Virus record (IMG/VR): IMGVR_UViG_3300036790_000209
Coordinates: 1 to 51,261 of that record
Source: a virus
Lineage: Duplodnaviria > Caudoviricetes
Length of the DNA: 51,261 nucleotides
Reading direction: 5' to 3' (one strand)
In this document: positions 2,461 through 34,051 of the stretch, one piece after another
How the letters are laid out: every line of letters begins with the position of its first letter
Position numbering within the stretch: position 1 is the first letter of the stretch
Made by a program: the position numbers and the translations under genes
The notes under the pieces: generated by a model
The model's input: the letters and a program-made list of their open reading frames with translations, nothing else
The model's database searches: none
What the model was told of the DNA's origin: nothing

Positions 2461-2955
2461 TTATCTTTCGATATCCGATCCTAGAATGGCTCGGACGTTC
2501 GTTGTGATATGTTGTGGATGATGTTTTCCAGTGCCGGTGTGCGACGTGCCCCCTCCATATGTTCCTATCTTATGCCCTTCCCTGGGAGCTTTCAGATCGT
2601 ACTTCCCCGGCTCAAACGATGCCCCTCTGTCAAACGAGACAATCTCCCTGGACACTGATTCAGGCACTTTATATCGCGTAGCCTTGTTATCTTTAATCAA
2701 ATATGCCGTCGAAGTGGCGATAATGACCCCTTCAAGGCTCATAGATCGCTTACAGGCCACCGCCATCGCGCACTCAGCGTGTTTCTTGCGCTTCGAGGTA
2801 GTCACGTCCCTAGGCGTCACTTCAATGTGAATCGGCTTCTCGGCGTCCTCGACTGAGGTGACATTTGGGAAGTACTTACGAACTTTACGGAGCGCCCCTG
2901 TTACTCTCTGCTTACTAACAATTGGTGTAACTCTACTACGCTTTGATCGCGTCAT
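2461..2955 (-). CDS. Phage hypothetical protein
   Basis: SD AGGAG upstream of ATG 2955; IEVTPRD...CAMAVAC motif. Confidence 0.65.
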   Translation of the reverse strand: MTRSKRSRVTPIVSKQRVTGALRKVRKYFPNVTSVEDAEKPIHIEVTPRDVTTSKRKKHAECAMAVACKRSMSLEGVIIATSTAYLIKDNKATRYKVPESVSREIVSFDRGASFEPGKYDLKAPREGHKIGTYGGGTSHTGTGKHHPQHITTNVRAILGSDIER

Positions 2956-2956
2956 T

Positions 2957-3124
2957 TTAGTTCTCCTTTTCCTTAGATAGACTCCCAACTCGTTGCTCCA
3001 CACTCCGTTCATCGACTACCCAAACTCTCCCCTGTTTGCGCGCCCGGAGCCTGCCCATGCGAATCAGACGCAGTACGTAATCGTATTCCACGCCCAGTCG
3101 CCGGGCTACCTCAGTTACCGTCAT
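2957..3124 (-). CDS. Excisionase-like HTH (HTH_17/MerR-type) DNA-binding protein
   Basis: MTVTEVARRLGV...LIRMGRLRARKQGRVWVV; GGAG SD. Confidence 0.85.
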   Translation of the reverse strand: MTVTEVARRLGVEYDYVLRLIRMGRLRARKQGRVWVVDERSVEQRVGSLSKEKEN

Positions 3125-4367
3125 CGAACGTCTCCGGATGATTTGGAGTGCGCGGGACGAACCCATGACCACCCAAGTCATCCCCGGCAACCCCCCAGCA
3201 GATTTCGCTAAACGGGCAAGTAGACGGCCAAACGCAATTTCCTTCGCTCGTGGTCATGGGGAACCAGCGATCTAACAAGGCGTCGTCGATGCCTTCCGGG
3301 CCGTCCTGCTCGATCACCCTGAGTCGATCGCGATGTTCCCGGATGGCTACCTCAATTGGAAGCCTTTGCCGCTTCCACCGTTCAACTTCATAAGGTGAGC
3401 GAAGGATCGAGGTCAGCTCCACGAACTGCTCCTCAAGCAACGCCCGATCGTTGACCGCTAGATAGCTAATCCATCCACTAACACCCCCCAGCCTCTCAGC
3501 CACCATAGCCTTATGTACCCCGCTCAGGCGATGTTGCTTCCCTCCAGGACACCTGCGTCCATTGCCCATGACGTGCGGCGCGGTACAGGACCATTCAAAC
3601 CTGGCGTACCACTCCTCCTCGGTCATGGGCGGCTCCCCTTCCCGCTTCCATGCCTGCACCAATGGTGAATCCCAGTGATAGTTCCCCGAGCCCTTAGGAT
3701 AATCCTGGCGGCTGCCCTTCACCAACCCAGCCATGATCGTTCCCGCGACAGGTTCCCTCAGGGCTTCCTCGACCGCCAAAGCCTCGGAAAACGTGGTCAT
3801 ATCGTAACGCCACTTGTCGCGCCATTTTTGATCGACGCGGCTGGTGGTCTTCAAATTCATAATGAACACCGAGCCATCGTCCAAACGCTTCATAACGATG
3901 TCCGGGCGGGTGAGTTGCCTGATCGTACGGCCTTCGCAATGATAGTCGTAAGTCAACTCCCGCTCGATCATAACTACCTGATAAGTCTGCAAGATACGAT
4001 CTAATCGAGCGGCGACCCATCCCCTCAGCAGGGCCTCCGCTAAACTCATCCCCTCGTTGAAGTCCACCTCGGGGTCCGGCCCTGGACGAAAGACATTAAT
4101 CGGTGTAACCCTCCGAGCGCTCAACATGGTTTCCCTGGCGATAGCCACACAGTCCTCAACCGGCTTGCGCCCCAGCGCCGCTTCAATCCCGTTATGCACC
4201 GCTGTACCAATCAATGGGTCAAGCCACTCCCCCGGCTTCTCGATGCCCCGGCCATCGTGTTCGTAGGACCAATAGCGCTTCCTCATACAGTGCTCGGCTA
4301 CTTCGATCCGGCTGCGATCGGTCGAGATAATGGCGTCCTCCGGCAGATCATCCTTCGTGCGAATCAC
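3111..4367 (-). CDS. PD-(D/E)XK Cas4/RecB-like exonuclease
   Basis: N-terminal Cys (HCMRK), GTAVH, PDIV...NLKT, C-terminal CxxxxxCPFxxxC Fe-S-type motif. Confidence 0.8.
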   Translation of the reverse strand: MIRTKDDLPEDAIISTDRSRIEVAEHCMRKRYWSYEHDGRGIEKPGEWLDPLIGTAVHNGIEAALGRKPVEDCVAIARETMLSARRVTPINVFRPGPDPEVDFNEGMSLAEALLRGWVAARLDRILQTYQVVMIERELTYDYHCEGRTIRQLTRPDIVMKRLDDGSVFIMNLKTTSRVDQKWRDKWRYDMTTFSEALAVEEALREPVAGTIMAGLVKGSRQDYPKGSGNYHWDSPLVQAWKREGEPPMTEEEWYARFEWSCTAPHVMGNGRRCPGGKQHRLSGVHKAMVAERLGGVSGWISYLAVNDRALLEEQFVELTSILRSPYEVERWKRQRLPIEVAIREHRDRLRVIEQDGPEGIDDALLDRWFPMTTSEGNCVWPSTCPFSEICWGVAGDDLGGHGFVPRTPNHPETFDDGN

Positions 4368-4645
4368 TTGGCCTCCTTCGACCGTTGCCCCAGCAGTATC
4401 CCAATTAACATGGCATCAAGCAGAGCGCGAGAGATGTCTTTGTTGAAAGCTGGGAGATGGTTCGACTCCAGGATGCTTAATACCACCATAGCTTGTATGT
4501 CGTCGGTCAAGCCTACTTCCGCGAACGCAGAGCCCACCTTACGATCCGGGGTGGGGGCAAGCAATTTTTGTATTAAATCGCTCGCATCGCGTGCTGCCTG
4601 CGTCATTTCTTCAAATGAATTGTACTGCTGCTTATTGTCTGTCAT
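4364..4645 (-). CDS. Hypothetical protein, first gene of the leftward operon
   Basis: GTGA overlap with the exonuclease gene; follows a putative promoter. Confidence 0.55.
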   Translation of the reverse strand: MTDNKQQYNSFEEMTQAARDASDLIQKLLAPTPDRKVGSAFAEVGLTDDIQAMVVLSILESNHLPAFNKDISRALLDAMLIGILLGQRSKEAK

Positions 4646-4657
4646 TGGAAGGCGCTC

Positions 4658-4686
4658 ACTTTCGCATAACACTGAAATTGTGTCAA
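4658..4686 (-). promoter_or_regulatory. Putative sigma70 promoter, leftward
   Basis: TTGACA-17 nt-GAAAGT with an extended -10 TG. Confidence 0.45.
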
Positions 4687-4758
4687 GTGTTTTTGGCATA
4701 CAAAATATGGGGGTGTGCCGACTGTCTTGACCACCATGGGTAGTAGTCAAATTAGGTA

Positions 4759-4787
4759 TTGACCCTCAGGTGTTTACCTGTTAGAGT
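4759..4787 (+). promoter_or_regulatory. Putative sigma70 promoter for the helicase gene
   Basis: TTGACC-17 nt-TAGAGT with an extended -10 TG. Confidence 0.6.
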
Positions 4788-4876
4788 GTAAAGGTATTTA
4801 GGCGGGTAACTTCTAGGGTGGGGGATGCCTTAACCATCCCTCGCCCTCCTATCCTGTTAAGGAGGATAGACTTATC

Positions 4877-6016
4877 ATGGCATGTTTAGACCGCTGGACC
4901 GATCTTTCCGATCACCTGAATCATTGGTTCTACAAGCCCGATCTTGAAGCCCTAGAATGCTGCCTCAGCGCGGCGGTAGCCCATTATGAATCTTGCGATC
5001 CAGTATGGCTGTTCATCCTTGGTCCGAGCGGCTCAGGCAAAACAAGTGTCTTGGTTACCTGCCTGTCTGCCCTGCCTGGTTCGACCATCCTTGGCGATTT
5101 AACCCCAAAAACATTCCTTTCCGGTTCCGGCCAAGGTGAAAAGAGTCTGCTATTCCAGGTTCAACGCCCGATGTTCCTGTTCAAAGACTTCACCACCATC
5201 ATGTCTAAGCGGGACGAGGACAAACGTGAGATCGCTAGCCAGCTTCGCGAGGTCTTCGACGGCCATTTCGTTAAGAATACCGGCAATGGTAAGCCCCTTG
5301 AATGGAAGGGGAAAGCAACAGTATTCGCGGCAGCCACCCCGGCTCTCGAACGTGCCTGGGCTATTCACCGGGAACTTGGTGAGCGTTTCATGCAGGTGCG
5401 TTGGGCTAAGAGCAACAGCTTAGCGATCGCCGCCGCCGCACGCCGTCAGATCGGCCACGAGAGCGAAATTCGCGCGACCATGCTCAAGCTAACCCATGAG
5501 TTCTTTATGGGAACCCCTCCCATGACGCGGCCCTTACCACATATCACCGATGTAATGGAACTCTGTATCGACCGCCTAGCTGCTTGTGTAGCCATGCTGC
5601 GCAGCCAGGTAATTCGCGATTCCCACGGCTCTAGAGACATTTTAAGCGCCGCGCAGACCGAGGAGCCCACCCGCATCGCCAAGGCGCTCACAACGCTTGC
5701 TAGGTGCCATAGCGCCCTGTTTAGGCGCGATGAGGTCGATTACTCAGACTATTTGATCGCGCGCCGCGTGGCTCTCGATTCTATCCCTCAAACCCGCAGC
5801 CAAATCATGCAGGCCCTCCCGGCTGAAGGCTCTATCGCCCTCACCGACCTTGCCAAGTTCTCTGGGGCCATACGAGCCACCGTCGAATGGAACCTCGACG
5901 AGATGGAAGCCCTGGGTATTATGGAGTTCGACCGCGATCCAATGAACCCGCTCCAACACCAATGGAAACTCACGGACTCCTTCCATTCCCTTTGGTCCCC
6001 AAGCGAGCTTACTTAA
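4877..6016 (+). CDS. MCM-like AAA+ ATPase, putative replicative helicase/initiator with C-terminal wHTH
   Basis: Walker A GPSGSGKT, Walker B FLFKDFT, LREVFDG, Arg finger GERF; strong SD AAGGAGG. Confidence 0.75.
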   Translation: MACLDRWTDLSDHLNHWFYKPDLEALECCLSAAVAHYESCDPVWLFILGPSGSGKTSVLVTCLSALPGSTILGDLTPKTFLSGSGQGEKSLLFQVQRPMFLFKDFTTIMSKRDEDKREIASQLREVFDGHFVKNTGNGKPLEWKGKATVFAAATPALERAWAIHRELGERFMQVRWAKSNSLAIAAAARRQIGHESEIRATMLKLTHEFFMGTPPMTRPLPHITDVMELCIDRLAACVAMLRSQVIRDSHGSRDILSAAQTEEPTRIAKALTTLARCHSALFRRDEVDYSDYLIARRVALDSIPQTRSQIMQALPAEGSIALTDLAKFSGAIRATVEWNLDEMEALGIMEFDRDPMNPLQHQWKLTDSFHSLWSPSELT

Positions 6017-8483: not shown

Positions 8484-8826
8484 GGTTCACCTTATTGTAG
8501 GGCTCGGCGGCAAGGGCGTCCCACGCTGCCAGGGCGCGTTCCGCACTCATGTAGGCATCGTTTACGACCCCCCAATTAGTAGCTCTCTTGTGCTGAATAA
8601 ATTCTATCGCAATTTCGTCGGCTGCCGTCTGCATCGCGCGAAGCGCCTCAGCCATCGCCTCCACCACCGGGCGCAGAGTGTCCAGTTCGTCGGCGCACTT
8701 TACCAGTCGATTGACGCGCCCTTGTTCATAAGCATTAAGCGTGGTGCCCCTGGATGATCCGGTGGTTGCGACGAACGGTGGGTCATTGCGCCACTTCTGA
8801 ATCAACCGCTCGATGGCGTTAGGCAT
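8476..8826 (-). CDS. Hypothetical protein
   Basis: Overlaps neighbours in operon fashion; likely start MPNAIE. Confidence 0.55.
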   Translation of the reverse strand: MPNAIERLIQKWRNDPPFVATTGSSRGTTLNAYEQGRVNRLVKCADELDTLRPVVEAMAEALRAMQTAADEIAIEFIQHKRATNWGVVNDAYMSAERALAAWDALAAEPYNKVNHE

Positions 8827-9106
8827 TGTTGCGCTCCCGCCCCTTAGCCCACTTACTCGCCACCTCAATCACTTCCTCAAACAGCAGTTGGCATAGTTCA
8901 CAGTCCTGCGGCTGCGCCCCATCATGAAAATTTCGATGTTTCACCACATGAGCGTTCAACTCGAATTGCTTAGTCAAGCGTTCAGATAGCGTCCGGGCGT
9001 CAAACGCGGTAAGGTTATGGGCCATGATGCAGTAGGCAGCCTCATCGTGGACGAGTCCTTCCATCCCTGAGTCATACACAATTACCGAGTTATAAGCTTC
9101 GAGCAT
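8819..9106 (-). CDS. Hypothetical protein, C-terminal H..H...CxxC
   Basis: SD AGGAG; immediately downstream of the JAB gene. Confidence 0.6.
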   Translation of the reverse strand: MLEAYNSVIVYDSGMEGLVHDEAAYCIMAHNLTAFDARTLSERLTKQFELNAHVVKHRNFHDGAQPQDCELCQLLFEEVIEVASKWAKGRERNNA

Positions 9107-9118: not shown

Positions 9119-9946
9119 CTATTCGTAGATTGTTACGCCGTCAAACGACAGGCCCTCGACCTTGGCATACGGGTTCGGCTTCATGGCCTGTTTCAGTTGA
9201 TCGATGTAGACTTGATTGGCGGACAGGCCGGTTAACATAACCTTCCCATGCACCCGGCTATAGCGGCCACACTCTAATCTAACTCGCATGACCATTTTGG
9301 ATTCCCCCCGCGCGTTGACTACGATTTCAATCGGCCAGTTCGCATGGTCCTCATCCGTCTTGCTGAAGAATGCTTCCATCTTGACATGGGAGTGAACCGC
9401 TGCGATGGTCTCTGGGCGAGCACGAAACCCTTCATCCGGCATTTCGACATGAGCACCACTTGCAGACTGAGGAGGGAAATACATCTCGGTAACCTTGCCT
9501 CGGCCCGTGATAGCATCGATTGTGCCGATGAGGTAAGCCATCCATTCGGTGTCGAATGAGTTGGCCAACTCAATCCAGGCTTGGTACATGCCGCAGGGTA
9601 TCTCGACGATTGGCTCCTTGACAATAGGACAGCCCTTCACATCGGCTACTTCGCAGGTCCAATCCAAGTTTAGCTTGGGTTCGATAACTACCGGTCGATT
9701 GTCGATGTCACGGTGGTTCCAGCCATCCCAATTAGAGCGCCTCCCATCACCACTCGCTCCGTTGCCATTATTCCCTTCGCTCACATAACTCGCGTTATGC
9801 AGCAGCGCCGCCGCCGCGACATCATGATTCAAGGGGGCGGGTTGTTCGAGTACCCTCAACCAACCTTCTTGCAGGATATGGCGAACTTTCTTGTCCTTCA
9901 TCTTCTTTGACACTGGATTCTCCCTTCGATTGAATATTGACCACAT
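9119..9946 (-). CDS. JAB/MPN+ (JAMM) metalloprotease, deubiquitinase-like
   Basis: EWMAYLIG (catalytic Glu) and HSHVKMEAFFSKTD = HxH-x7-S-x2-D. Confidence 0.9.
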   Translation of the reverse strand: MWSIFNRRENPVSKKMKDKKVRHILQEGWLRVLEQPAPLNHDVAAAALLHNASYVSEGNNGNGASGDGRRSNWDGWNHRDIDNRPVVIEPKLNLDWTCEVADVKGCPIVKEPIVEIPCGMYQAWIELANSFDTEWMAYLIGTIDAITGRGKVTEMYFPPQSASGAHVEMPDEGFRARPETIAAVHSHVKMEAFFSKTDEDHANWPIEIVVNARGESKMVMRVRLECGRYSRVHGKVMLTGLSANQVYIDQLKQAMKPNPYAKVEGLSFDGVTIYE

Positions 9947-9949
9947 AAG

Positions 9950-10048
9950 TTACCATCCCAACCAGTCGGCCAGGAACACTACCGCGCTCCAGAACACGTT
10001 CCAGATAATCAGAGCCGCTAGGATGGCTCCTACAATACTCCAAAACAT
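9950..10048 (-). CDS. 32-aa membrane peptide inside the Ub-like operon (not in ORF track)
   Basis: AGGAGG SD; MFWSIVGAILAALIIWNVFWSAVVFLADWLGW; fills the E1-JAB gap exactly. Confidence 0.7.
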   Translation of the reverse strand: MFWSIVGAILAALIIWNVFWSAVVFLADWLGW

Positions 10049-10049
10049 G

Positions 10050-10727
10050 TCAGACCTCCTGATACTGCCTAACCTGTAGACCGTCCTTCCAATCTACTCG
10101 AAAAGTGTCGCGGATCGGCTGATCTAGCAGGATGTAGTAGCAAGCCATGGAAGCAGCCATGGCGCATGGACCTACGAATTGAGGGACGCTTGTGTAGCCG
10201 GGTTGGCCTTCCAGCTCGCTCGCCCATTCCGCCGGGGTTCCCGAAATAGACATCCCTAAACCATCCGCGCCTAGTTCAATATAACGGCCAGCGCGGATGG
10301 CATCCACCTCTGGCTGCCTAAGATGCCCTGCAGGATGCCCTTTAACGGCCTTGTAGACCTCTCTGCGCGATCGGAGCGAATCGGTTGAGCAAACTACCCT
10401 ATTCGCGCTTGAAACCGCCTCACAATGGCTGGGAACCTCAAAATCGAAGTGTCCATAGGCTCGAATGGCTGTCTCCGGCCTGGCTTTGCGAATCAAAGCC
10501 GCCAGGGCTAAGGACTTAGGCTTACCGATGTCCTCCGGGGTGAATGGCAGGCGATTCAGGTTATGCTCGCTGATCTCATCCCCATCGAATAGAGCCAGCT
10601 CTCGCACCCCTGCCAGCCCGAGGAAGTACCCACACCATGCTCCAATTCCCCCACATCCTACCACTACGATCTTCTGATCCCTTTGGATGCCAAGGGATTC
10701 TTGACGTAGATAGATATTCTCACTCAT
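10050..10727 (-). CDS. ThiF/MoeB/E1-family adenylyltransferase
   Basis: VVVGCGGIG, FDGDEISEHNLNR, GKPKS, CSTDS..R; no CxxC zinc sites. Confidence 0.92.
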   Translation of the reverse strand: MSENIYLRQESLGIQRDQKIVVVGCGGIGAWCGYFLGLAGVRELALFDGDEISEHNLNRLPFTPEDIGKPKSLALAALIRKARPETAIRAYGHFDFEVPSHCEAVSSANRVVCSTDSLRSRREVYKAVKGHPAGHLRQPEVDAIRAGRYIELGADGLGMSISGTPAEWASELEGQPGYTSVPQFVGPCAMAASMACYYILLDQPIRDTFRVDWKDGLQVRQYQEV

Positions 10728-10942
10728 TTGCGTCCTCGCTTCCCGGCCTTCTTGGCCTTCCCCACTTTACGTTTTCTACCCTTGGGAGGTAACAACGTCA
10801 GACCTGTTCTTGGATCGGTCCACGGTAGCCCCTTGCGGTGATTCTGGCGCATGGCCTCTACTACCTCGTCAGCGTCTAGGGTAGCAGCCTCACTCGTCCA
10901 CTCATAAGTCATCTGACTCTCCTGGATTAGCGTTACTACCAT
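10724..10942 (-). CDS. Small protein with Lys/Arg-rich tail, within the Ub-like operon
   Basis: ATGA overlap with the E1 gene; AGGAG SD before the internal Met (MTYEW). Confidence 0.6.
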   Translation of the reverse strand: MVVTLIQESQMTYEWTSEAATLDADEVVEAMRQNHRKGLPWTDPRTGLTLLPPKGRKRKVGKAKKAGKRGRK

Positions 10943-11024
10943 CCCATACTATAGTAGGATATAGTATAGTATACTATAGTATATATGGTAGTCATGGTAG
11001 TCATGGTTACCGAGGCTACCGTCC

Positions 11025-12242
11025 CTACCGTCTCCGCGTAGTGCCCTCTTGAGTCCAAATTACTCCCGGTGCCTCCCGTTCAACGATCATGGGATGGTAG
11101 CTAGTGGGGTCGAAGTAATCCCCTTTACGGTCCCACTCAGTCATAAACTCCCCTACTTGTGGGGGCACAAACGCGCGTACTGCCGGGGACAAATTATATT
11201 CCCTAACCAGTAAACTCGACAGATTCACTTCCTTGAACGCTCGATTAATCATGACTTCAATGCGTACCAAATCATCTAGACTGGCTAGTCTCTCCGGCAA
11301 CCCTTGTGGCTGGCAGCAGAACCCTGAGTAATCCGCATGAGGCAGCTTCAACCCATATTGATCCAAACGGGCATTCTCTAATTGGAACGACCCATCAACC
11401 GGATTGAACGCTATCCAGAACGGCACCTTTACCATGCCAGCCGGAATCGCAGGCCACTCAAGGTTAACCTTTCGGGGAGGTGCGATTTCCTCGTTATCCT
11501 CGCCTAGGTTAGGTATGCTCCAATCCGGCCAAGTAAACTTAAGAGGGCAAAAGTTAATAACCCCTTGGACGGCAATCAACCCGTCATGAACGCGCTTAAC
11601 AGGAATGTTACCCACCCATGACGGGATAGCTAACTCCCTCCCGCGCGCTTGAGCGAACTCAATTCGCTGCCTTTGGACCGCAGCCATTTCCACTTCAGCC
11701 TGTTGACGAATAATGACCGCTTCACGCTGTGCCGCAGCGAGCAATGCGATCCGTTGCATGGCGATTGCCTGTGCGGCTGATTTGCGCATCCGGTTAAGCA
11801 GCTTCACCGGCGCGCCTGACTCCGCGATTGCGTTCAACCGGAATAATTTACCTCCTATCGACAAGAAGGACGGTTGGGAAGCGGCTAGGTTCTCCGCGAT
11901 GTCCATGTCTCCCATAATCTCGCTCACAGTCGATTCGCCGTTCAAAGTTGGCGCGATCTCCGTGAGATAGCAACGAATGGCGTCGGCCAGAGCGGATGGG
12001 GGGAGGGGATTCCCCCTGTGGGTAAACCCGTAAGAGCTCCCACTTAGATACGTCTGTAACGTTGTCCCCCGTTGCTGAGCGGGCCGCGTATAGTTCCGCA
12101 ATTCAGGAGGCAAATAACTCCTGAACGCCACCATGGGCTGCCTGAGCACATGATCGCTTACGTCTCGATCTCCGATGGTGGCAAGGAGCGATAAACTATT
12201 CCCATTGTCTTCTGGGGTGATCTCCACTCGTATCTCTTGCAT
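11025..12242 (-). CDS. Putative E2 (UBC-like) protein with N-terminal extension and coiled coil
   Basis: LPHADYSGFCC resembles the E2 HP(N/H)...GxxC active site and is followed by an amphipathic helix; lies between Ubl and E1. Confidence 0.55.
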   Translation of the reverse strand: MQEIRVEITPEDNGNSLSLLATIGDRDVSDHVLRQPMVAFRSYLPPELRNYTRPAQQRGTTLQTYLSGSSYGFTHRGNPLPPSALADAIRCYLTEIAPTLNGESTVSEIMGDMDIAENLAASQPSFLSIGGKLFRLNAIAESGAPVKLLNRMRKSAAQAIAMQRIALLAAAQREAVIIRQQAEVEMAAVQRQRIEFAQARGRELAIPSWVGNIPVKRVHDGLIAVQGVINFCPLKFTWPDWSIPNLGEDNEEIAPPRKVNLEWPAIPAGMVKVPFWIAFNPVDGSFQLENARLDQYGLKLPHADYSGFCCQPQGLPERLASLDDLVRIEVMINRAFKEVNLSSLLVREYNLSPAVRAFVPPQVGEFMTEWDRKGDYFDPTSYHPMIVEREAPGVIWTQEGTTRRR

Positions 12243-12313
12243 TACCTTACTCCCTTCCGTTTGAGGGTTATCATGCGCCCTTTGAGTCGCCCACAGTCTT
12301 AGTAGACCCCTCG

Positions 12314-12341
12314 ACTAGGGGACTGTCGCCAATCCCCTAGT
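12314..12341 (-). terminator. Stem-loop between Ubl and E2-like genes
   Basis: Perfect 9-bp stem ACTAGGGGA/TCCCCTAGT; no clear U tract. Confidence 0.4.
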
Positions 12342-12363
12342 GCGTGAGACCTTCCAAGGGCGG

Positions 12364-12609
12364 TTAGCCTCGCGCGTCCTTAGCCACCAACTCAACCAAG
12401 GTGGCTCCAAGATCGCTGAGGGTCTTGCCTCCCTGCGAGGTATCGGCCTTCGACCCGTTGACCAGCACATTAAACGTTTTCAGGCCATGTGAGGTGCTGT
12501 AGTACTTGGCGACATCGGCGAGCTTCTCGCTTCCGTCGGCATGGCCTACTATTTCCCCGTTTACCTTGACTTCGACTTCCAAAGCGTTGCTATCCCAAAC
12601 ATTATTCAT
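12364..12609 (-). CDS. Ubiquitin-like (beta-grasp) protein
   Basis: 81 aa; beta-beta-alpha-beta pattern (VEVKVNG, LADVAKYY, FNVLVNG, LVELVAK); ends ...KDARG; heads the E2-E1-JAB operon. Confidence 0.75.
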   Translation of the reverse strand: MNNVWDSNALEVEVKVNGEIVGHADGSEKLADVAKYYSTSHGLKTFNVLVNGSKADTSQGGKTLSDLGATLVELVAKDARG

Positions 12610-20042: not shown

Positions 20043-20266
20043 CTCGTGAACTCACCCCCGTCGAAGTCGATAACCTTCCCTCTAAGGTCTTGATGGCGAT
20101 CGGACGAGGCCAATGGAACGACCGGTCCAGTACTCGCTTCAGCTTACTTGTCGGCCAGATGCGCCGTGACAATGCGCGAATCCATACCACTCTCTGCTAC
20201 CTCCATGGACTGGCATCTCTCGACTCCGAGGACATCGATATCCTACGCGGGTTGCTTACCTTATGA
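20039..20266 (+). CDS. Hypothetical protein upstream of TerL
   Basis: TTGA and ATGA overlaps with both neighbours. Confidence 0.5.
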   Translation: MTRELTPVEVDNLPSKVLMAIGRGQWNDRSSTRFSLLVGQMRRDNARIHTTLCYLHGLASLDSEDIDILRGLLTL

Positions 20267-21996
20267 ACCTCGCGCGGGCCGAACAACTCCTCGCCAAACT
20301 CCCGGTAAAAGACCGCGACTCGGGCTTGATCGTCCCTTTTGTCTTCAACGCGAACCAGCAGATATTCATGGGCCGTCTCAAACGTCAATATGCCTCGATC
20401 GGCATGGTCCGTGCGATCGTACTCAAAGCCCGCCGCGTGGGCATCAGCTCAGCCAGCGACGGTCTATTAGTCCCTCACTGTCTCAGCCGCGCGCAAGCCC
20501 ATGCGAAAATCGTCGCCCACCGCGCGGACACCGCAGAGGGCCTTTTTCGTGTTCCCCGCGACTTGGCTCGCGCCCTCCCCTTCCCAGTCGGTGAAGTTAT
20601 GACCCGAAAAATTATCTTCCACCACCCGCAAGGCCATAGTGTCATGGACATCGCAACCGCGGGAGCCGTGAGCGGTGGGCGCGGCTTGACTCTCTCGGCC
20701 CTGCACCTCTCCGAGGCCGCCCAGTTTACCGGCGAAGACAGCTTTCTCAGCCTGCTTCCTGCGGTGCAAAATGGCCCCGGCTCGATGGTTTTCGTCGAAT
20801 CGACGGCCTTTGGCCGGGTAGGCGTGGGTCGCGCGTTTTATGAGTTCTGGACCAACAGCGTTAAGGGTAAGACCGGCTACATCCCCATCTTCCTCTCTTG
20901 GCTGGACGACCCAGCTTGTATCCGCGACCCCGCCGAAGCGGTTGACGCCCCCATGAACGACATCGAGAAGACTCTCATGGGCCGACCCTTCCGCGCCACC
21001 AAGTCCCAAGTTGCTTGGTTTCGTCACACCCTCGAATCTCAGTGTCAGGGCCTCTTGCCTAAGATGATGCAGGAATATCCTCACACCCCCGAGGTCGCCT
21101 TCGTATCGAGCGGCGACCCAGCCTTCACCGAGGAAGAAATAGCCTACGTCCGCTCGACCATCGAGCCCCCGCACATCGTCGGCCACATCGACTTAGTCGA
21201 TGGCAAGCCGGGGATGGTTAAAGCCCGCCAAGGGAGCCTGCTCATCTGGGAACTCCCTCAGCCGGGCCACCACTACTACATCGGTGCCGACGCTGCAACC
21301 GGCATCGAAGATGGTGACTTTGCCGCCTACTGCGTACTCGACGGCACAACCGGCCATCTAGTAGCCCGCTACGCCGAGCGAGTTCACCCAGAGCACCTGG
21401 CGCGCCAACTGTGGCTCGCCGGGACATTTTACCACCAAGCCAAAATAAACATCGAACTCACCGGCCACCTCGGTCGCGTGATCCAGCGCATCCTCAGGGA
21501 CGACTACCGCTACTGGAATCTCTACGGTTGGAAAGGCAAAGACGATCGCCTGCCTTCCCCCAACAGCAGCAATGGTCCCCGCGCCGGAGGTTGGGAAACC
21601 ACTCCGAACTCCCGCCGCCTCCTGTTCGATACCTTCCGCACCTGCCTGCGAGCAGGCATTCGTGGCGACGAGGCCGACGGCATCGAAGTCCCCGACGAGG
21701 CCATCATCGAGCAGATGGACTTAGCTACCCTCACCGAAGGCATGAGTTGGGAAGTCGAACGCGGACACGACGACATCCTATTTTCCTGTATGTTATCCGT
21801 GATTACTTTCGTTCAATACCCGCCACCCAGAGTCGGCCGCCGTAGCCGTAGGCCCGACCCCGAACAGGCCGACAGGACGAATGGCCTGCCGATGCTGGTC
21901 AAAAACGAACTCCCCATCTCGCTTGGTGACCACCTTCGTCAACTCGAACGCCAGATGAAGCGTGCTGGCAAGCCCGAATCGTTAGATGGAATATAA
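20263..21996 (+). CDS. terL: Terminase large subunit
   Basis: LKARRVGIS (Walker A variant), LHLSEAA (Walker B), VESTA coupling motif, nuclease IGADAATG...D...HDD. Confidence 0.92.
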   Translation: MNLARAEQLLAKLPVKDRDSGLIVPFVFNANQQIFMGRLKRQYASIGMVRAIVLKARRVGISSASDGLLVPHCLSRAQAHAKIVAHRADTAEGLFRVPRDLARALPFPVGEVMTRKIIFHHPQGHSVMDIATAGAVSGGRGLTLSALHLSEAAQFTGEDSFLSLLPAVQNGPGSMVFVESTAFGRVGVGRAFYEFWTNSVKGKTGYIPIFLSWLDDPACIRDPAEAVDAPMNDIEKTLMGRPFRATKSQVAWFRHTLESQCQGLLPKMMQEYPHTPEVAFVSSGDPAFTEEEIAYVRSTIEPPHIVGHIDLVDGKPGMVKARQGSLLIWELPQPGHHYYIGADAATGIEDGDFAAYCVLDGTTGHLVARYAERVHPEHLARQLWLAGTFYHQAKINIELTGHLGRVIQRILRDDYRYWNLYGWKGKDDRLPSPNSSNGPRAGGWETTPNSRRLLFDTFRTCLRAGIRGDEADGIEVPDEAIIEQMDLATLTEGMSWEVERGHDDILFSCMLSVITFVQYPPPRVGRRSRRPDPEQADRTNGLPMLVKNELPISLGDHLRQLERQMKRAGKPESLDGI

Positions 21997-22415: not shown

Positions 22416-22679
22416 ATGATCGGTGAGGAATTCGTGCGTCTACGCAAGGAATCCCGCGCTGGAGCTTGGTCCGCCCTGCAAGAAAAACTCATGCTCAACT
22501 TTGGCGTGCTGGTGCCCGAGGCGGCCTCCATGACCGACTTCTTCAAACTGTCGATGGCCATCGAGGACTTCTTGCGTACCGAACAGGGCAGCGAATCCTT
22601 GCACCCCATCGAAGCCCTGGCGAAGTTTCTCAACGAACCCATCCCTGTCGAGCCCGACGACAACGAGGTCATCCAGTGA
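22416..22679 (+). CDS. Hypothetical protein
   Basis: GTGA overlap with the portal start. Confidence 0.55.
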   Translation: MIGEEFVRLRKESRAGAWSALQEKLMLNFGVLVPEAASMTDFFKLSMAIEDFLRTEQGSESLHPIEALAKFLNEPIPVEPDDNEVIQ

Positions 22680-24388
22680 GCCGACGAATCCGTTATTCAG
22701 CCGCCTCCGTTGCCCGCCGCGAGGCCCAACAAGACCCCGACCTTCGGCTAATCGCCCAACTTGACGCTCTCCAAGACGCCGCCGATCAAGAACGCGATCG
22801 CCGCCTCGGTGCCGGGTGGTTTGACGAAGTGCGCTCTTTCTACAACATCGACCCGGCGACCTATAGCGCCCCTACCTTCCGCCCGCGCATCGTGATCCCT
22901 GAACTTCAAGTCTTAATGCTTAACGAGGCGACCGATTTATCCGACTCCATCCCCAAAATCTATATTACTCACAAGACCGATCGCGAGAAGGATCGCGAGA
23001 AAGCCTATCAGGAAAACTGGCGCTCCTCCTTCTACAACAACCGCATCCTCGAAGCGGAAATCTGGGCGCTGTTTGGCGGTACCGGCTTCATCCAAGTAGG
23101 TTTCGACCCCCACGCCCGCCTTGGCAAAGGGGAAGTCTACATTGAATCCCGCGACCCTGATACCGTCCACCCCGACCCCGGCACAAAAGACTGGAAGCGT
23201 TGGGCTTACGTTCAATTCGACGACCGCATGTATATCGACGAGGTTCGCTCTCGGTGGCCCGACACCGGCTATAAAGTCATCCCCCGCCGTGGCCCCGCTC
23301 CGGGACTTGCAGGTGCGGCAGGCACCCTTGGTAACGGCCTCCAAATGCCTCCCGGCCCGATGTCGATCGGTCCCGGCATGGTTTCCAAACTGATCGCAGC
23401 CGATTCAATCGTGGGTGTCCGGCATACTTTCATTCGCGACTACACGGTTGAGGAAATCCCCAAGGATGAACGCGAGCGAATGCGTGAAGCCCTGGACCCT
23501 TTGGTTGCCATCCCCGGTTACAAACGCATGTATCCAAACGGCCGCTGGATCGTTGACTGCGAAGGGATTATACTATCGGATGGCCCGAATCCCTTCCCCC
23601 TGGGCTTATTCCCGATCATCCCCTACCGGGCCATGCCTTCGCTTGGCTGGTTCTGGGGCATCCCGCCGATCCGCTACACGCGCACTTTGCAACAGATCGC
23701 CGAGCGGATGTATACGCAAACTTTCGAAAACGCCGTGCGCCTAAACAACGGTATCTGGTTCATCGACGAATCGACCGGACTCGACGCGGACTCCTTCGGC
23801 GGCCTCCCGGCGGAAATCACGGTGATCCATGCGAACTCCCGCATCCCCGAAGTCCGCTGGCCCGCTCCCATGCCCTCTCAAATGATCCAATTCCCAAGCT
23901 CCCTACTCGACCTCCAGCGCAGACTCCAGGGCCACAGCGCAGCGCGTTCCGGCAACACTTCTCCCGGCAACCAGTCGGCCGACCTATACGACTCAACAAT
24001 TTACCAGGCTCAGTTCCTTACCCGCTTGCGTTCCCGATTAATGTCCGAACCCACTCAGGCGACCGCCGAAATGGTCTTCTACACCATGTGCCGCTTCTAC
24101 AAAGATGGCGCCGCCTTCGCGGGCATCGATGGCGGCGATGTCAAGTGGTCCAAATGGGAAGCCATGGATGAAGACCTTGACGCCTATACCGTGATCCTCG
24201 ACCCAGGATCGCTCAAACCAGTATCGATGTCAGCCCTCCGCTCACTCGCAGTCGAACTCTTGAAAGTAGGACTCCCCATTAAATACGCCCTCGAATGGAT
24301 GGACGTTCCCGAGGCTGACGAGATCGCGCAGGAAGTCCAACAGAACCTAGAGCTTAGCGCCCTTTCGAAAGTGAAGCGCCCCCGATGA
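22676..24388 (+). CDS. Portal protein
   Basis: ~570 aa after TerL; GTGFIQVGFD, DPDTVHPDP, FPIIPY...FWG resemble P22/podovirus-type portals; GTG start with GAGG SD. Confidence 0.82.
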   Translation: MSRRIRYSAASVARREAQQDPDLRLIAQLDALQDAADQERDRRLGAGWFDEVRSFYNIDPATYSAPTFRPRIVIPELQVLMLNEATDLSDSIPKIYITHKTDREKDREKAYQENWRSSFYNNRILEAEIWALFGGTGFIQVGFDPHARLGKGEVYIESRDPDTVHPDPGTKDWKRWAYVQFDDRMYIDEVRSRWPDTGYKVIPRRGPAPGLAGAAGTLGNGLQMPPGPMSIGPGMVSKLIAADSIVGVRHTFIRDYTVEEIPKDERERMREALDPLVAIPGYKRMYPNGRWIVDCEGIILSDGPNPFPLGLFPIIPYRAMPSLGWFWGIPPIRYTRTLQQIAERMYTQTFENAVRLNNGIWFIDESTGLDADSFGGLPAEITVIHANSRIPEVRWPAPMPSQMIQFPSSLLDLQRRLQGHSAARSGNTSPGNQSADLYDSTIYQAQFLTRLRSRLMSEPTQATAEMVFYTMCRFYKDGAAFAGIDGGDVKWSKWEAMDEDLDAYTVILDPGSLKPVSMSALRSLAVELLKVGLPIKYALEWMDVPEADEIAQEVQQNLELSALSKVKRPR

Positions 24389-33440: not shown

Positions 33441-34051
33441 TGGATGCCTTCGCACAACTCGGACAGATTTTCCAAAACTCCAGTGGAGGAGCAAACTGGG
33501 GTAACATCGCTAAGACCGGCCTGACCGGCTTCGGCCTAATCGGTAACATTCTGGCTCAGCAGAAGCAGAATGCGGCCCTCAACCGCATCGCTTACTATCA
33601 GAAGAATCCGGCCGCCGCCGCGCAGCAGATCAACTCCCTCACTCAGCCTCTCAGCCAAGGGCTGACTCAAGATGTTGGCAACAACGTCCAAGGCTACCTT
33701 GCCGAACGTGGCCTCAGCGGCAGCCCCAACGTAACCGCTGAAGTCCTGGCGCAAGCCTTGGCCCCCTACCAACAACAAAATCAGCAAACCGCCACGCAGG
33801 AGTTTATGAGTCTCCTAAATCCAGCGGGGGCCACCTATGGCAAGCCTGGCGACTTGAGTTCCCTATTAAAACTCTGGAGCCCCGCGACCGCGATCAGCTC
33901 ACCCACCGCCGGCCCCGGCGGGCAGGCTTACAACCCCATCTATGGCGGGCAGCCTGGAACTCCACCCACTTTTAATCTGCCATCGAACAACCCTGGCGCT
34001 CCACCCGACATTGACGCTTCCCCAGGACTCGACTTGTTTGGGAGCTACTAA
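33440..34051 (+). CDS. Internal virion/ejection protein
   Basis: Q/N/G-rich; LAERGLSGS motif. Confidence 0.6.
   Translation: MDAFAQLGQIFQNSSGGANWGNIAKTGLTGFGLIGNILAQQKQNAALNRIAYYQKNPAAAAQQINSLTQPLSQGLTQDVGNNVQGYLAERGLSGSPNVTAEVLAQALAPYQQQNQQTATQEFMSLLNPAGATYGKPGDLSSLLKLWSPATAISSPTAGPGGQAYNPIYGGQPGTPPTFNLPSNNPGAPPDIDASPGLDLFGSY

What the first reader, a model, noticed from the sequence alone, without database searches (positions are those of the whole stretch)
9119..12609. Phage-encoded ubiquitin-like conjugation operon (Ubl-E2-E1-JAB)
Seen: one minus-strand cluster with an 81-aa protein ending in Gly, a 405-aa protein with PHADYSGFCC, a ThiF/E1 adenylyltransferase and a JAMM protease with intact E/HxH/S/D. 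Established: E1-E2-JAB(-Ubl) sets are known from bacterial anti-phage systems (Bil, CBASS Cap2/Cap3) and from Bub and PRTRC loci. Inference: here a virus carries the full writer and eraser among its early host-takeover genes, with no sulfur-cofactor genes nearby. It may tag host proteins, counter host Ubl-based defence, or exclude competing phages. The E1 and JAB calls are strong; the Ubl and especially the E2 folds are inferred.
Basis: partly seen in the sequence, partly recalled or inferred. Interest (0 to 1): 0.93.

Follow-up and report, generated by a model that had tools for sequence, protein, structure and literature searches.

The report
Phage-encoded ubiquitin-like conjugation gene cassette
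An uncultured bacteriophage carries a compact gene set for a ubiquitin-like tag, its activating enzyme, a probable conjugating enzyme of a new family and a tag-removing protease, and related sets turn up in many other uncultured phages, which suggests that phages themselves use ubiquitin-style protein tagging.

Summary
All four ORFs exist as described, on the minus strand of a 51-kb IMG/VR phage record with terminase, portal, capsid and DNA polymerase genes.

- **E1 (10050-10727):** a ThiF-type adenylation domain with every adenylation residue intact. It has no conserved catalytic cysteine.
- **JAB (9119-9946):** a Prok-JAB protease with an intact JAMM motif.
- **Ubl (12364-12609):** the 81-aa protein has no Pfam match. 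It folds confidently as a beta-grasp and matches ubiquitin, SUMO and ISG15. Its C-terminus is a conserved ...ARG.

The order Ubl, E2-like, E1, JAB recurs in 17 of 38 E1-anchored viral loci. These include a sister family linked by profile comparison.

The cassette fails the tests for PRTRC, Bil, Bub and CBASS membership. I read it as a new phage-borne variant of Ubl conjugation. Its target and biological role are unknown. The co-folding test gave no verdict.

The parts
12364..12609 (-). Ubiquitin-like modifier (81 aa), beta-grasp fold with a flexible tail ending ...KDARG
   Evidence: ORF. No Pfam, NCBIfam, PHROG or PADLOC hit. Eleven database matches at 61-100% identity, one of them the window's own protein; the aligned C-terminal Gly is invariant, and 3 of the 10 relatives carry 2 extra residues after it. 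AF2 model pLDDT 84.1 with order b-b-a-b-b-(a)-b and a disordered tail at 77-81. Foldseek PDB: 22 hits at E<=1e-3, TM 0.55-0.64 over the rows shown, to ubiquitin, SUMO1, ISG15, NEDD8 and the Ubl of a bacterial E1-E2-Ubl complex, 8tyz_B. The ESM Atlas's own model has Rad60-SLD, ubiquitin and UBX neighbours at TM 0.60-0.71.
11025..12242 (-). E2-like protein (405 aa): N-terminal alpha/beta domain (1-136), a 57-residue helix (145-201), and a C-terminal UBC-like domain (about 205-390) with invariant His302 and Cys309
10724..10942 (-). Small ORF (72 aa) with a Lys/Arg-rich C-terminal tail; uncertain member of the cassette
   Evidence: ORF; it overlaps the E1 start by 4 bases. No family hit. L002 has an 82-aa ORF with a basic tail at the same position, but the two show no detectable similarity. 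L005 and L012 have no such ORF; there the Ubl itself carries a basic N-terminal extension.
10050..10727 (-). E1-like adenylating enzyme (225 aa), a single ThiF/MoeB-type domain with no catalytic-cysteine domain
   Evidence: PF00899 at E 6.6e-22. In 19 viral homologues R8, Q9, GCGGxG, D48, D50, N56, N58, R59, K71, T115 and D116 are invariant, and the only invariant Cys is the one inside GCGG. All NCBIfam equivalog matches (ThiF, MoeB, PRTRC_ThiF) fall far below their cut-offs.
9119..9946 (-). JAB/JAMM metallopeptidase (275 aa) with a roughly 125-residue N-terminal extension
   Evidence: PF14464 at E 3.2e-7. E134, H185-x-H187, S195 and D198 are invariant. The gene lies immediately downstream of the E1 gene in the window and in the related loci.
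8819..9106 (-). Conserved 95-aa ORF just downstream of the JAB gene; possible accessory protein with a Cys/His pattern
   Evidence: ORF. 43% identical (E 1e-24) to the ORF in the same position in L002 and L004. The shared pattern C-x3-H ... H-x3-H ... C-x2-C was read by eye. No family hit. Membership of the cassette is not shown.

Best explanation
The cassette encodes a minimal ubiquitin-like protein-conjugation pathway that belongs to the phage. The steps below are inferred from the anatomy; none has been demonstrated.

1. **Activation.** The ThiF-type E1, probably a homodimer like ThiF and MoeB, uses ATP to adenylate the C-terminal Gly81 of the 81-aa beta-grasp protein.
2. **Transfer.** The E1 has no conserved catalytic cysteine. 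The activated Ubl would therefore pass directly to Cys309 of the 405-aa protein, forming a thioester helped by His302. This residue pair sits where the HPN...Cys site of E2 enzymes sits, between the beta-meander and the crossover helix of a UBC-like domain.
3. **Target choice.** The N-terminal domain and long helix of the 405-aa protein vary greatly in length across the family. They would choose the target, which receives the Ubl on a lysine. No separate E3 is evident.
4. **Processing and removal.** The JAMM peptidase trims residues that follow the terminal Gly in precursor forms, and probably removes the Ubl from conjugates.

The target and the benefit to the phage are not known. My rough split of odds is: action on host proteins or host defences 40%, modification of the phage's own proteins 30%, exclusion of competing phages 20%, no conjugation at all 10%.
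For: **Individual parts**
- The E1 adenylation residues are all invariant.
- The JAMM motif is intact and invariant.
- The 81-aa protein is a confident beta-grasp. It resembles ubiquitin, SUMO, ISG15 and the Ubl of a bacterial E1-E2-Ubl complex, and it has a disordered C-terminal tail.
- The aligned terminal Gly is kept in 23 of 24 Ubl-family sequences. Six of the 24 have 1-2 extra residues after it, which implies peptidase maturation.
- In the 405-aa protein, His302 and Cys309 are invariant in 87 sequences. 143 of 152 held members carry [PT]H-x5-8-C, and 6 more carry H-x5-8-C.
- The AF2 model gives a helix, then five strands (a short one and four long ones), then a loop with His and Cys (pLDDT 96), then a helix and further helices.

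**Conserved gene order**
- The order Ubl, E2-like, E1, JAB is kept in L002 (same contig as L007; L004 is a near-identical locus on a metagenome contig), L005 (same contig as L008) and L012.
- In all, 17 of 38 E1-anchored IMG/VR loci show it.
- A sister family is linked to the window's by hhalign. For the E2-like proteins the probability is 92.9% at E 3.8e-7, and the alignment places the His/Cys and IN..S motifs in register. For the Ubls it is 85.2% at E 6e-6.

**Context**
- No sulfur-pathway genes were found in the window.
Against: - Foldseek found no PDB or BFVD hit at E<=1e-3 for the 405-aa model.
- The independent wide VIA search returned only coiled-coil matches to the long helix.
- No sequence profile links the family to UQ_con or any Prok-E2 family. 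A thin Prok-E2_D profile gave only a local match to the sister family at 9.9% probability.
- I could not see a residue-level superposition, so the equivalence of Cys309 with the E2 catalytic Cys is inferred from topology alone.
- The Ubl ends in Arg-Gly, not Gly-Gly.
- No conjugate, target or expression data exist, and the host is unknown.
- The HMMs for the sister family were built from the same loci that were then counted. Several loci are near-identical duplicates.
Confidence: 0.68

Rival explanations
1. The chemistry is the same, but the cassette is an anti-phage or superinfection-exclusion system carried by the phage, comparable to Bil. It would tag structural proteins of competing phages rather than act for this phage's own infection cycle.
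For: Every bacterial Ubl, E2, E1 and JAB set with a known function is an anti-phage system. [quoted passage not shown] The best PADLOC matches of the E1 are CBASS E1-E2 models. Phages often carry defence genes (recalled).
Against: Pfam scans of 53 window ORFs of 62 aa or more found no integrase, repressor or other lysogeny gene. The phage therefore looks virulent, and a standing defence system is less useful to a virulent phage. The E2-like and Ubl families look mostly viral. The pattern-limited scan of species-representative bacterial genomes returned 11 loci, none with an E2-like or Ubl gene. None of the four proteins matches a Bil-specific or Bub-specific PADLOC model.
Confidence: 0.15
2. 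The 405-aa protein is not a catalytic E2. It would be a scaffold, a substrate or an adaptor, and the E1 alone would activate the Ubl and hand it to targets, with JAB as the maturation and removal peptidase.
For: The E2 fold evidence is weak. E1-only conjugation without an E2 is known from archaeal SAMP/UbaA (recalled; the NCBIfam SAMP-activating E1 model matches the E1 at E 1.2e-9 but far below its cut-off). The long helix and the variable N-terminal region resemble an adaptor.
Against: His302 and Cys309 are invariant across 87 sequences that share only 17% mean column identity. The sister family keeps H-Y-H-x-DCWG at the aligned place. That pattern is what a catalytic dyad would show; a scaffold has no need for it. 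The domain's only structural neighbours are E2 and UEV folds.
Confidence: 0.1
3. The Ubl is a sulfur carrier. The E1 would adenylate it, it would be converted to a thiocarboxylate, and it would donate sulfur to a metabolite or a nucleic-acid modification. JAB would only trim the precursor, as in the CysO/Mec+ and QbsE/QbsD systems.
For: The E1's best family matches are ThiF and MoeB. Two of 11 Ubl relatives hit the ThiS Pfam model weakly at E 0.019, and one source names a relative 'sulfur carrier protein ThiS'. Sets of JAB, E1 and ThiS/MoaD-like proteins in sulfur assimilation are described in Iyer et al. 2006 (PMC1779556, passages read).
Against: The C-terminus is Arg-Gly, or Ala-Gly / Val-Gly in the sister family, and not the Gly-Gly of known sulfur carriers (the Gly-Gly rule is recalled). 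No rhodanese, cysteine desulfurase, PP-loop or cofactor-synthesis gene was found in the window. The 50 Foldseek rows shown for the Ubl model are ubiquitin-like modifier chains and none is titled ThiS or MoaD. An invariant His/Cys protein with UBC-like topology always sits between the Ubl and E1 genes.
Confidence: 0.07

Closest known systems
Bil (bacterial ISG15-like) anti-phage systems: BilA Ubl, BilB E2, BilC JAB, BilD E1
   Same: It has the same four activities as four separate genes: Ubl, E2, JAB and E1. The Ubl ends in Gly. There is no E3, and the E2 is thought to pick the target (PMC11601596, section 5 read). The window's Ubl model matches the Ubl chain of a bacterial E1-E2-Ubl complex, 8tyz_B.
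   Different: [quoted passage not shown] Here the E1 is a single 225-aa domain with no conserved Cys outside GCGG. The E2-like protein is 405 aa, has an extra N-terminal domain and a 57-residue helix, and matches no E2 profile. This cassette is encoded by a phage rather than a bacterium. No PADLOC match was found for the Ubl, the E2-like protein or the JAB.
Operon type 6d of Iyer, Burroughs and Aravind 2006 (Ubl, alpha-helical protein, E2-like, E1-like, JAB with JAB-N); equated with the NCBIfam PRTRC system from recall
   Same: It has a small Ubl with a conserved C-terminal Gly, a separate E2-like protein, a separate E1, and a JAB with an N-terminal extension. It sits on mobile DNA (PMC1779556, section 14 read).
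   Different: Type 6d E2-like proteins lack the His upstream of the Cys and have one downstream instead (PMC1779556, section 14). Here the His is 7 residues upstream of the Cys. PRTRC_A scores 19.8 bits against a 101.8 cut-off, and PRTRC_ThiF scores 29.4 against 144.75. No NCBIfam model, so no PRTRC_B or PRTRC_C model, matches the 405-aa or the 81-aa protein. No ParB family appeared in the Pfam scans.
Bub (bacterial ubiquitination-like, 6E/DUF6527) operons
   Same: It has a Ubl, E2, E1, a JAB peptidase, and an E1 without a catalytic cysteine (PMC11601596, abstract and sections 5 and 12 read). The window also encodes a DUF6527 protein, but about 21 kb away at 34051-34359.
   Different: Bub uses Ubl-E2 and JAB-E1 fusions (Type I) or an E2-E1 fusion (Type II). 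It works through Ser and Tyr oxyesters, and it always includes DUF6527 (BubE) in the operon (PMC11601596). Here the genes are separate, the E2-like protein has an invariant Cys, and DUF6527 lies outside the cassette. DUF6527 reached its cut-off in 0 of 10 related viral records searched, including a 100% complete record that carries the same cassette order.
Type II CBASS Cap2 (E2-E1 fusion) and Cap3 (JAB)
   Same: It combines E1 adenylation, E2-like and JAB activities. The E1's best PADLOC and NCBIfam defence matches are of this kind.
   Different: Cap2 is a fusion protein that conjugates a CD-NTase rather than a free Ubl. No nucleotidyltransferase or effector gene was seen in the Pfam scans here. 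The matches cover only the nucleotide-binding part of the E1 (residues 8-127 over the rows shown).
Lambdoid and T1-like phage tail-assembly Ubl (TAPI) with JAB (TAPK)
   Same: It is a phage-encoded beta-grasp protein with a C-terminal Gly, next to a JAB peptidase (PMC1779556, section 13 passages read).
   Different: That pair has no E1 or E2 and lies in the tail module. Here the cassette has an E1 and an E2-like protein and lies in the non-structural minus-strand arm, 7.6 kb from the terminase gene.

Membership tests
Ubiquitin-like beta-grasp modifiers | Beta-grasp fold | tested here: met
   AF2 pLDDT 84.1 with order b-b-a-b-b-(a)-b. Foldseek PDB gave 22 hits at E<=1e-3, probability 1.00, TM 0.55-0.64 over the rows shown, to ubiquitin, SUMO1, NEDD8 and ISG15. 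The ESM Atlas model has ubiquitin, Rad60-SLD and UBX neighbours.
Ubiquitin-like beta-grasp modifiers | Exposed flexible C-terminal tail ending in Gly, used for adenylation | tested here: met
   The tail 77-81 is disordered in the model. The terminal Gly is kept in 23 of 24 aligned family members, and 6 of the 24 have 1-2 residues after it. The tail ends in Arg-Gly, not Gly-Gly.
Ubiquitin-like beta-grasp modifiers | Covalent conjugation to targets | not testable with these tools
   This needs biochemistry or mass spectrometry.
E1 / ThiF / MoeB adenylating enzymes | Rossmann-type ATP-binding domain with GxGxxG, the Arg/Gln N-terminal motif, NxNR, Lys, and the Mg-binding Asp | tested here: met
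   PF00899 at E 6.6e-22. R8, Q9, GCGGxG, D48, D50, N56, N58, R59, K71, T115 and D116 are invariant in 19 sequences. The functional roles of these residues are recalled from MoeB and ThiF.
Canonical E1 (Uba1, BilD type) | Catalytic cysteine domain that forms an E1~Ubl thioester | tested here: not met
   The protein is 225 aa with a single domain. The only invariant Cys lies inside GCGG.
E2 / UBC fold | UBC fold: N-terminal helix, four-strand beta-meander, active-site loop, crossover helix, C-terminal helices | tested here: inconclusive
E2 / UBC fold | Catalytic Cys preceded by a conserved His (HPN-type) in the loop after the beta-meander | tested here: met
   H302 and C309 are invariant in 87 sequences. 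143 of 152 held members carry [PT]H-x5-8-C. Both residues lie between strand 271-279 and helix 322-335, at pLDDT 96. Equivalence with the E2 site follows from topology; no superposition was seen.
E2 / UBC fold | Sequence-profile match to UQ_con or a Prok-E2 family | tested here: not met
   No such Pfam hit was found for the window protein, for 9 close relatives, for 89 distant relatives or for 87 aligned members. No PDB sequence hit was found. hhalign against a thin Prok-E2_D profile gave 0.1% probability for A3 and 9.9% for A8. The ESM Atlas gave only a lead: a cluster with Prok-E2_D on 14% of members, score 0.88.
JAB/JAMM metallopeptidases | E ... HxH-x7-S-x2-D zinc site | tested here: met
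   PF14464 at E 3.2e-7, above its cut-off. E134, H185, H187, S195 and D198 are invariant.
PRTRC system (NCBIfam TIGR03735-03738 and others) | Proteins score above the curated cut-offs of PRTRC_A (JAB), PRTRC_ThiF, PRTRC_B and PRTRC_C, and a ParB homologue is present | tested here: not met
   PRTRC_A scores 19.8 bits against 101.8. PRTRC_ThiF scores 29.4 against 144.75. No NCBIfam model matches the 405-aa or the 81-aa protein. No ParB family appeared in the Pfam scans of the window.
Bub operons | Ubl-E2 and JAB-E1 fusions or an E2-E1 fusion; Ser/Tyr oxyester chemistry; DUF6527 (BubE) inside the operon | tested here: not met
   The genes are separate. The E2-like protein has an invariant Cys. 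DUF6527 lies about 21 kb away and reached its cut-off in 0 of 10 related viral records. The chemistry itself could not be tested.
Bil systems | [quoted passage not shown] | tested here: not met
   The E1 is a single domain of 225 aa with no catalytic Cys. The E2-like protein is 405 aa and has extra domains. The definition is taken from PMC11601596, section 5.
Sulfur-carrier systems (ThiS/MoaD with ThiF/MoeB; CysO/Mec+) | Gly-Gly C-terminus; a rhodanese or other sulfur donor; a cognate synthase nearby | tested here: not met
   The C-terminus is Arg-Gly. No such genes were found in the window. All ThiF and MoeB equivalog scores fall far below their cut-offs. The Gly-Gly rule is recalled.

The most novel reading that the evidence does not exclude
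Tailed phages carry their own widespread ubiquitin-like conjugation machinery. It would consist of a ubiquitin/SUMO-like tag, a cysteine-less minimal E1, a previously unrecognised E2-like family (a UBC-like domain with a PH-x6-7-C site, fused to a long helix and variable N-terminal targeting modules) and a JAMM eraser. A virulent phage would use it during infection to tag host or phage proteins. This would be the first writer-and-eraser Ubl system described for viruses of prokaryotes, mirroring the bacterial Bil, Bub and CBASS defences.
Probability: 0.5. Interest if true: 0.9.

Novelty: new variant of a known kind. Interest (0 to 1): 0.78.

Why it matters
In prokaryotes, ubiquitin-like conjugation has so far been tied to sulfur transfer and, more recently, to bacterial anti-phage defence (Bil, Bub, type II CBASS). 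This finding puts a complete candidate pathway on the virus side.

The pathway is not confined to one genome:
- Its E2-like family has 213 representatives at 50% clustering in 1.84 billion proteins.
- The four-gene order recurs in 17 of 38 E1-anchored IMG/VR loci.
- tblastn with the window's E2-like protein and two sister-family E2-like proteins found nothing in 50,697 GenBank phage records, so the cassette has gone unnoticed.

If the pathway is active, three things follow:
- Phages would be using ubiquitin-style tagging as a tool, as eukaryotic viruses exploit host ubiquitin.
- It would offer a minimal model in which an E1 without a catalytic Cys passes the Ubl to an E2.
- It would add a new E2-like architecture with built-in targeting domains.

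Five full-text searches and the papers I read turned up no description of such a phage cassette. Papers outside that library cannot be excluded.

Tried and rejected
**Co-folding**
- I co-folded the E1, the Ubl and the 405-aa protein, with the 405-aa protein as the scored partner. The verdict was 'no answer'. It is evidence neither for nor against binding.

**Fold searches with the 405-aa model**
- Foldseek against PDB and BFVD gave no hit at E<=1e-3.
- The wide VIA search returned only coiled-coil matches to helix 142-204, so the other domains were barely tested.

**Sequence and profile searches for the 405-aa and 81-aa proteins**
- The window proteins had no hit in Pfam, NCBIfam, PHROGs or PADLOC.
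- Pfam scans of each family's aligned members gave only weak matches. Two of the 11 Ubl relatives hit ThiS at E 0.019.
- PDB sequence searches with three profiles gave only a LecB lectin or coiled-coil noise.

**Prok-E2_D link**
- I built a thin profile of 8 rows. One row, from L059, was a wrongly chosen ORF that did not align.
- hhalign gave 0.1% probability against A3 and 9.9% against A8. The link is not established.

**Scope of some scans**
- One search scanned 89 of the 136 distant family proteins I held.
- A3 used the window protein plus 86 of the 152 family proteins I held. I left out fragments and the 21-member long-form cluster. That cluster was aligned separately as A5 and keeps the His and Cys.

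**Searches for related loci**
- A3 was too divergent for the locus finder.
- Single distant members and A4 found no viral locus.
- blastn and tblastn against GenBank phages found nothing for the region, the 405-aa protein, two sister E2-like proteins or the DUF6527 protein. The E1 found only distant ThiF and MoeB genes.
- The genome-contig scan was limited to two E1 peptide patterns. It returned 11 loci, none with an E2-like or Ubl gene.

**Other checks that gave nothing**
- Promoter and terminator scans were not above chance.
- No tRNA genes were found.
- The window's 72-aa ORF and its positional analogue in L002 show no similarity.
- The window's 76-aa ORF upstream of the Ubl gene is not detectably similar to the one in L005.
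- DUF6527 as a cassette partner is rejected. It reached its cut-off in 0 of 10 related records, with one weak hit.
- The sliding-clamp lead for the roughly 245-aa protein of the sister cassette rests on one PHROG hit at E 5e-4. A PDB sequence search found nothing.

Full report
**1. What is in the sequence**

One search lists five tightly packed minus-strand ORFs in the region:
- 12364-12609: 81 aa, ending ...VAKDARG.
- 11025-12242: 405 aa, containing LPHADYSGFCC.
- 10724-10942: 72 aa, with a Lys/Arg-rich tail.
- 10050-10727: 225 aa.
- 9119-9946: 275 aa.

A sixth ORF of 95 aa, at 8819-9106, follows after a 12-base gap.

The window is one whole IMG/VR virus record of 51,261 bases, estimated 93% complete by CheckV. 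PHROG matches identify a large terminase (20263-21996), portal (22466-24388), major head protein (26920-27903), tail proteins, a Sak4-like annealing protein and a DNA polymerase. Pfam adds a PD-(D/E)XK nuclease, and a family A polymerase with a UDG-superfamily domain on the neighbouring ORF. Pfam scans of 53 window ORFs of 62 aa or more found no integrase, repressor, tRNA gene, sulfur-cofactor gene, rhodanese or PP-loop enzyme.

**2. The two firm calls**

The 225-aa protein matches Pfam ThiF at E 6.6e-22. I aligned it with 18 E1 homologues from related viral loci, at 27-68% identity. R8, Q9, GCGGxG, D48, D50, N56, N58, R59, K71, T115 and D116 are invariant. From recall, these are the nucleotide-binding and Mg-binding residues of MoeB and ThiF. 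The only invariant cysteine sits inside the GCGG motif. The protein is a single domain, so there is no E1 catalytic-cysteine domain. All NCBIfam equivalogs (ThiF, MoeB, SAMP E1, PRTRC_ThiF) match far below their curated cut-offs.

The 275-aa protein matches Prok-JAB above its cut-off, at E 3.2e-7. It keeps E134, H185-x-H187, S195 and D198 in an alignment that reaches 32% identity. It also has a roughly 125-residue N-terminal extension of unknown fold.

**3. The 81-aa protein is a ubiquitin-like beta-grasp**

The protein matches nothing in Pfam, NCBIfam, PHROGs or PADLOC. It has ten relatives at 61-75% identity. All share ...(K/E)(D/E)ARG, and three continue for two more residues after the Gly.

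I folded it with a 24-row alignment that includes more distant members. AlphaFold2 gave pLDDT 84.1, the order b-b-a-b-b-(a)-b, and a disordered tail at 77-81. Foldseek against the PDB returned 22 hits at E<=1e-3 with probability 1.00 and TM 0.55-0.64 over the rows shown. They include ubiquitin, SUMO1, ISG15, NEDD8, Caldiarchaeum ubiquitin and the Ubl chain of a bacterial E1-E2-Ubl complex, 8tyz_B. The ESM Atlas holds its own model of this exact sequence. That model's nearest structural clusters include Rad60-SLD, ubiquitin and UBX families at TM 0.60-0.71.

The tail ends in Arg-Gly and not Gly-Gly. From recall, single-Gly ends occur in Atg8, Atg12 and Ufm1, whereas sulfur carriers end in Gly-Gly.

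**4. The 405-aa protein: a new family with an E2-like core**

A word-indexed search found only eight relatives. A profile search of 1.84 billion cluster representatives found 213 proteins at E<=1e-3, of which 179 are at E<=1e-10. None of the 89 distant members I scanned has a real Pfam domain. The only matches are weak coiled-coil ones, DivIVA and ATP-synt_B. The ten members I looked up all come from metagenomic contigs, and the nearest ESM Atlas clusters are mostly viral.

In an 87-sequence alignment with 17% mean column identity, H302, C309 and S343 are invariant, and P301, P316, W263, P207, A88 and P360 are nearly so. Of 152 family proteins I held, 143 carry [PT]H-x5-8-C. Six more carry H-x5-8-C. 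The remaining three comprise one 85-aa fragment and two long forms.

AlphaFold2 gave pLDDT 87.4, and 92-98 over residues 211-390. The model has three parts:
- An alpha/beta N-terminal domain (1-136).
- One helix of 57 residues (145-201).
- A C-terminal domain built of strands 215-217, 223-231, 235-246, 252-264 and 271-279, then a loop that carries H302 and C309, then helix 322-335 and three short helices.

From recall, this is the order of elements in the UBC fold: a helix, a four-strand meander, the HPN...Cys loop, the crossover helix and the C-terminal helices.

The structure searches were less decisive:
- Foldseek against the PDB gave no hit at E<=1e-3. Ubc9 and TSG101-UEV chains stand among the top weak rows, at E 0.2-0.9.
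- The Foldseek-independent VIA search was swamped by coiled-coil matches to the long helix, so it says little about the other domains.

**5. The gene order is conserved, and a sister cassette exists**

The order Ubl, E2-like, E1, JAB occurs in three further viral contigs of the window's type:
- A 56.8-kb viral contig holding L002 and L007, with a near-identical locus (L004) on a metagenome contig. Identities by BLASTP are Ubl 63%, E2-like 40%, E1 64% and JAB 53%.
- A far more distant 22-kb contig holding L005 and L008. The Ubl ends ...KETRG and the E2-like protein has THIGRTGC. In alignment, the E1 is 41-42% identical and the JAB 32%.
- L012, where the Ubl ends ...SKDARG and the E2-like protein has PHISYRSSC.

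I then searched IMG/VR with an E1 alignment, which returned 38 loci. They fall into these groups:
- 17 have the full four-gene order.
- 2 are cut by a contig end (L022, L025).
- 1 has a Ubl-like gene, a 594-aa E1 and a JAB (L033).
- 4 pair E1 and JAB with an Amidoligase_2 and a RimK-type ATP-grasp enzyme instead.
- 2 have a weak JAB match upstream of the E1.
- 12 have the E1 only.

Fourteen of the 17 belong to a sister type. That type has a Ubl of 78-131 aa ending ...YDEAG...YDVAG or ...YDKVG, and a protein of 286-347 aa (L025 adds one of 356 aa) with F-x-HYH-x3-5-DCWG and ...IN-x2-S. hhalign links the sister E2-like family to the window's at 92.9% probability and E 3.8e-7 over 207 columns, with the His/Cys and IN..S motifs in register. 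It links the two Ubl families at 85.2% probability and E 6e-6.

Three caveats apply:
- The sister-family HMMs were built from the same loci that were then counted.
- L007 and L008 repeat L002 and L005.
- Several loci have identical scores (L014 and L026; L016 and L017; L021, L022 and L023). About 3 window-type and 11 sister-type cassettes are distinct.

The pattern-limited scan of one genome per bacterial or archaeal species returned 11 E1 loci, none with an E2-like or Ubl gene. tblastn with the window's E2-like protein and two sister proteins found nothing in 50,697 GenBank phage records.

**6. How it most likely works**

Four things are shown: an intact adenylation site, an intact JAMM site, a ubiquitin-like fold with a free Gly tail, and an invariant His/Cys pair in a UBC-like setting. 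All four are genetically linked across deep divergence.

The rest is inferred:
- The E1 adenylates Gly81.
- Because the E1 lacks a catalytic Cys, the Ubl passes directly to Cys309 of the 405-aa protein.
- The variable N-terminal part and the long helix of that protein select the target. Distant members range from about 350 to 786 aa, and the homologous core sits at their C-terminal end.
- The JAB matures precursors that continue past the Gly, which is 6 of 24 family members, and probably reverses conjugation.

The co-folding job gave no verdict and is not used as evidence.

The biological role is open. The cassette lies in the minus-strand, non-structural arm, among small ORFs of unknown function and near recombination and replication genes. 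This fits early or middle expression but does not prove it. The promoter and terminator scans were not above chance.

**7. Comparison with known systems**

In function, the cassette most resembles Bil: separate Ubl, E2, JAB and E1 genes and no E3. It also resembles operon type 6d of Iyer et al. 2006. It fails the membership test for each known system:
- **Bil:** its E1 has tandem adenylation domains plus a Cys domain (PMC11601596, section 5).
- **Type 6d:** its E2-like proteins have their His downstream of the Cys (PMC1779556, section 14).
- **PRTRC:** the NCBIfam models score far below their cut-offs or not at all.
- **Bub:** it uses fusions, oxyester chemistry and an in-operon DUF6527 (PMC11601596).
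- **CBASS Cap2:** it is an E2-E1 fusion that acts on a CD-NTase.

The lambda-type TAPI/TAPK pair has no E1 or E2.

Five full-text searches, and term searches inside the Bil preprints, found no description of a phage-encoded cassette of Ubl, E2, E1 and JAB. Subscription-only papers and bioRxiv supplements were not visible, so prior mention cannot be excluded.

**8. Verdict**

This is a real, conserved phage gene cassette. It is best read as a new phage-borne variant of ubiquitin-like conjugation, with a previously unannotated E2-like family and Ubl family. My confidence in the mechanism is 0.68. Most of the uncertainty concerns whether the 405-aa protein acts as a catalytic E2, and what the system targets.

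Noticed in passing
window 34051-34359 (+): A 102-aa protein in the structural module matches Pfam DUF6527 (E 1e-6, 29 bits against a 23.6 cut-off). This is the BubE family, shown to be a Ser-His peptidase that removes Ubl conjugates in Bub operons (PMC11601596, section 11). By eye it has CxxC ... Cx5C and an HPS ... GHFHS stretch. It also matches phrog_15183 and phrog_33338, both of unknown function. It is absent from the complete related record G001, and over its cut-off in 0 of 10 related viral records. It could be a second eraser, or a counter to host Bub-type tagging.
   Followed up: partly
L010, L011, L013, L009 (E1 at about 5000 in L010): A different phage E1-JAB pairing. In L010 the E1 and JAB genes follow an ATP-grasp (RimK) protein, an Amidoligase_2 protein and an HNH endonuclease, with no Ubl or E2-like gene. 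L009, L011 and L013 show the same E1-JAB pairing without a Ubl or E2-like match; their upstream genes were not scanned.
   Followed up: partly
L021:2775-3524 and equivalents in L014, L016, L018, L019, L024, L027: In the sister cassette, a conserved protein of about 245 aa lies just upstream of the Ubl gene. One member has a weak PHROG match to a DNA polymerase processivity factor (E 5e-4). A PDB sequence search with a 7-row profile found nothing. If it is a sliding clamp, it would be an obvious candidate target.
   Followed up: partly
L012:3140-3556, L005:4377-4655; window 10724-10942; L002:2714-2962: Basic Lys/Ala/Pro-rich segments travel with the cassette in two forms. In L012 (138 aa) and L005 (92 aa) they form an N-terminal extension of the Ubl. 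In the window and L002 they form the C-terminal tail of a separate small ORF between the E2-like and E1 genes. These could be DNA-binding tails or lysine acceptor sites.
   Followed up: no
window 8819-9106 (-): A 95-aa ORF directly after the JAB gene is conserved in L002 and L004 (43% identity). By eye it has a shared C-x3-H ... H-x3-H ... C-x2-C pattern, which could be a small zinc-binding accessory protein. It has no family hit.
   Followed up: no
L014 and L026, 3231-4220 and 4227-4973: These loci have two tandem E2-like paralogues (329 and 248 aa) between the Ubl and E1 genes.
   Followed up: no
L033:4071-5855: An E1 homologue of 594 aa follows a Ubl-like gene and precedes a JAB gene, with no separate E2-like gene. 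It may be an E2-E1 fusion. This was not examined.
   Followed up: no
L054 (MAG contig), 2689-5699: In a bacterial MAG, a Prok-E2_D protein (PF14460, E 5.5e-10) lies 1.6 kb upstream of the E1 homologue. Between them is an ORF that carries an HSH ... S..D motif, read by eye. The E2_D active-site stretch ...GRLCWG resembles the DCWG motif of the sister family, but the profile comparison was not significant.
   Followed up: partly
window 47240-49939 (-): The family A DNA polymerase region is split over two ORFs. The upstream ORF (48512-49939) carries a uracil-DNA-glycosylase-superfamily domain (PF03167, E 2.6e-20), and the downstream ORF (47240-48493) carries DNA_pol_A.
   Followed up: no
window 11025-12242 (-): The public protein collection holds this gene only as a 296-aa product that starts at an internal codon (P0001). 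Six of the 8 relatives share the full N-terminus M-x-x-IRVE, so the 405-aa reading is the better one.
   Followed up: yes
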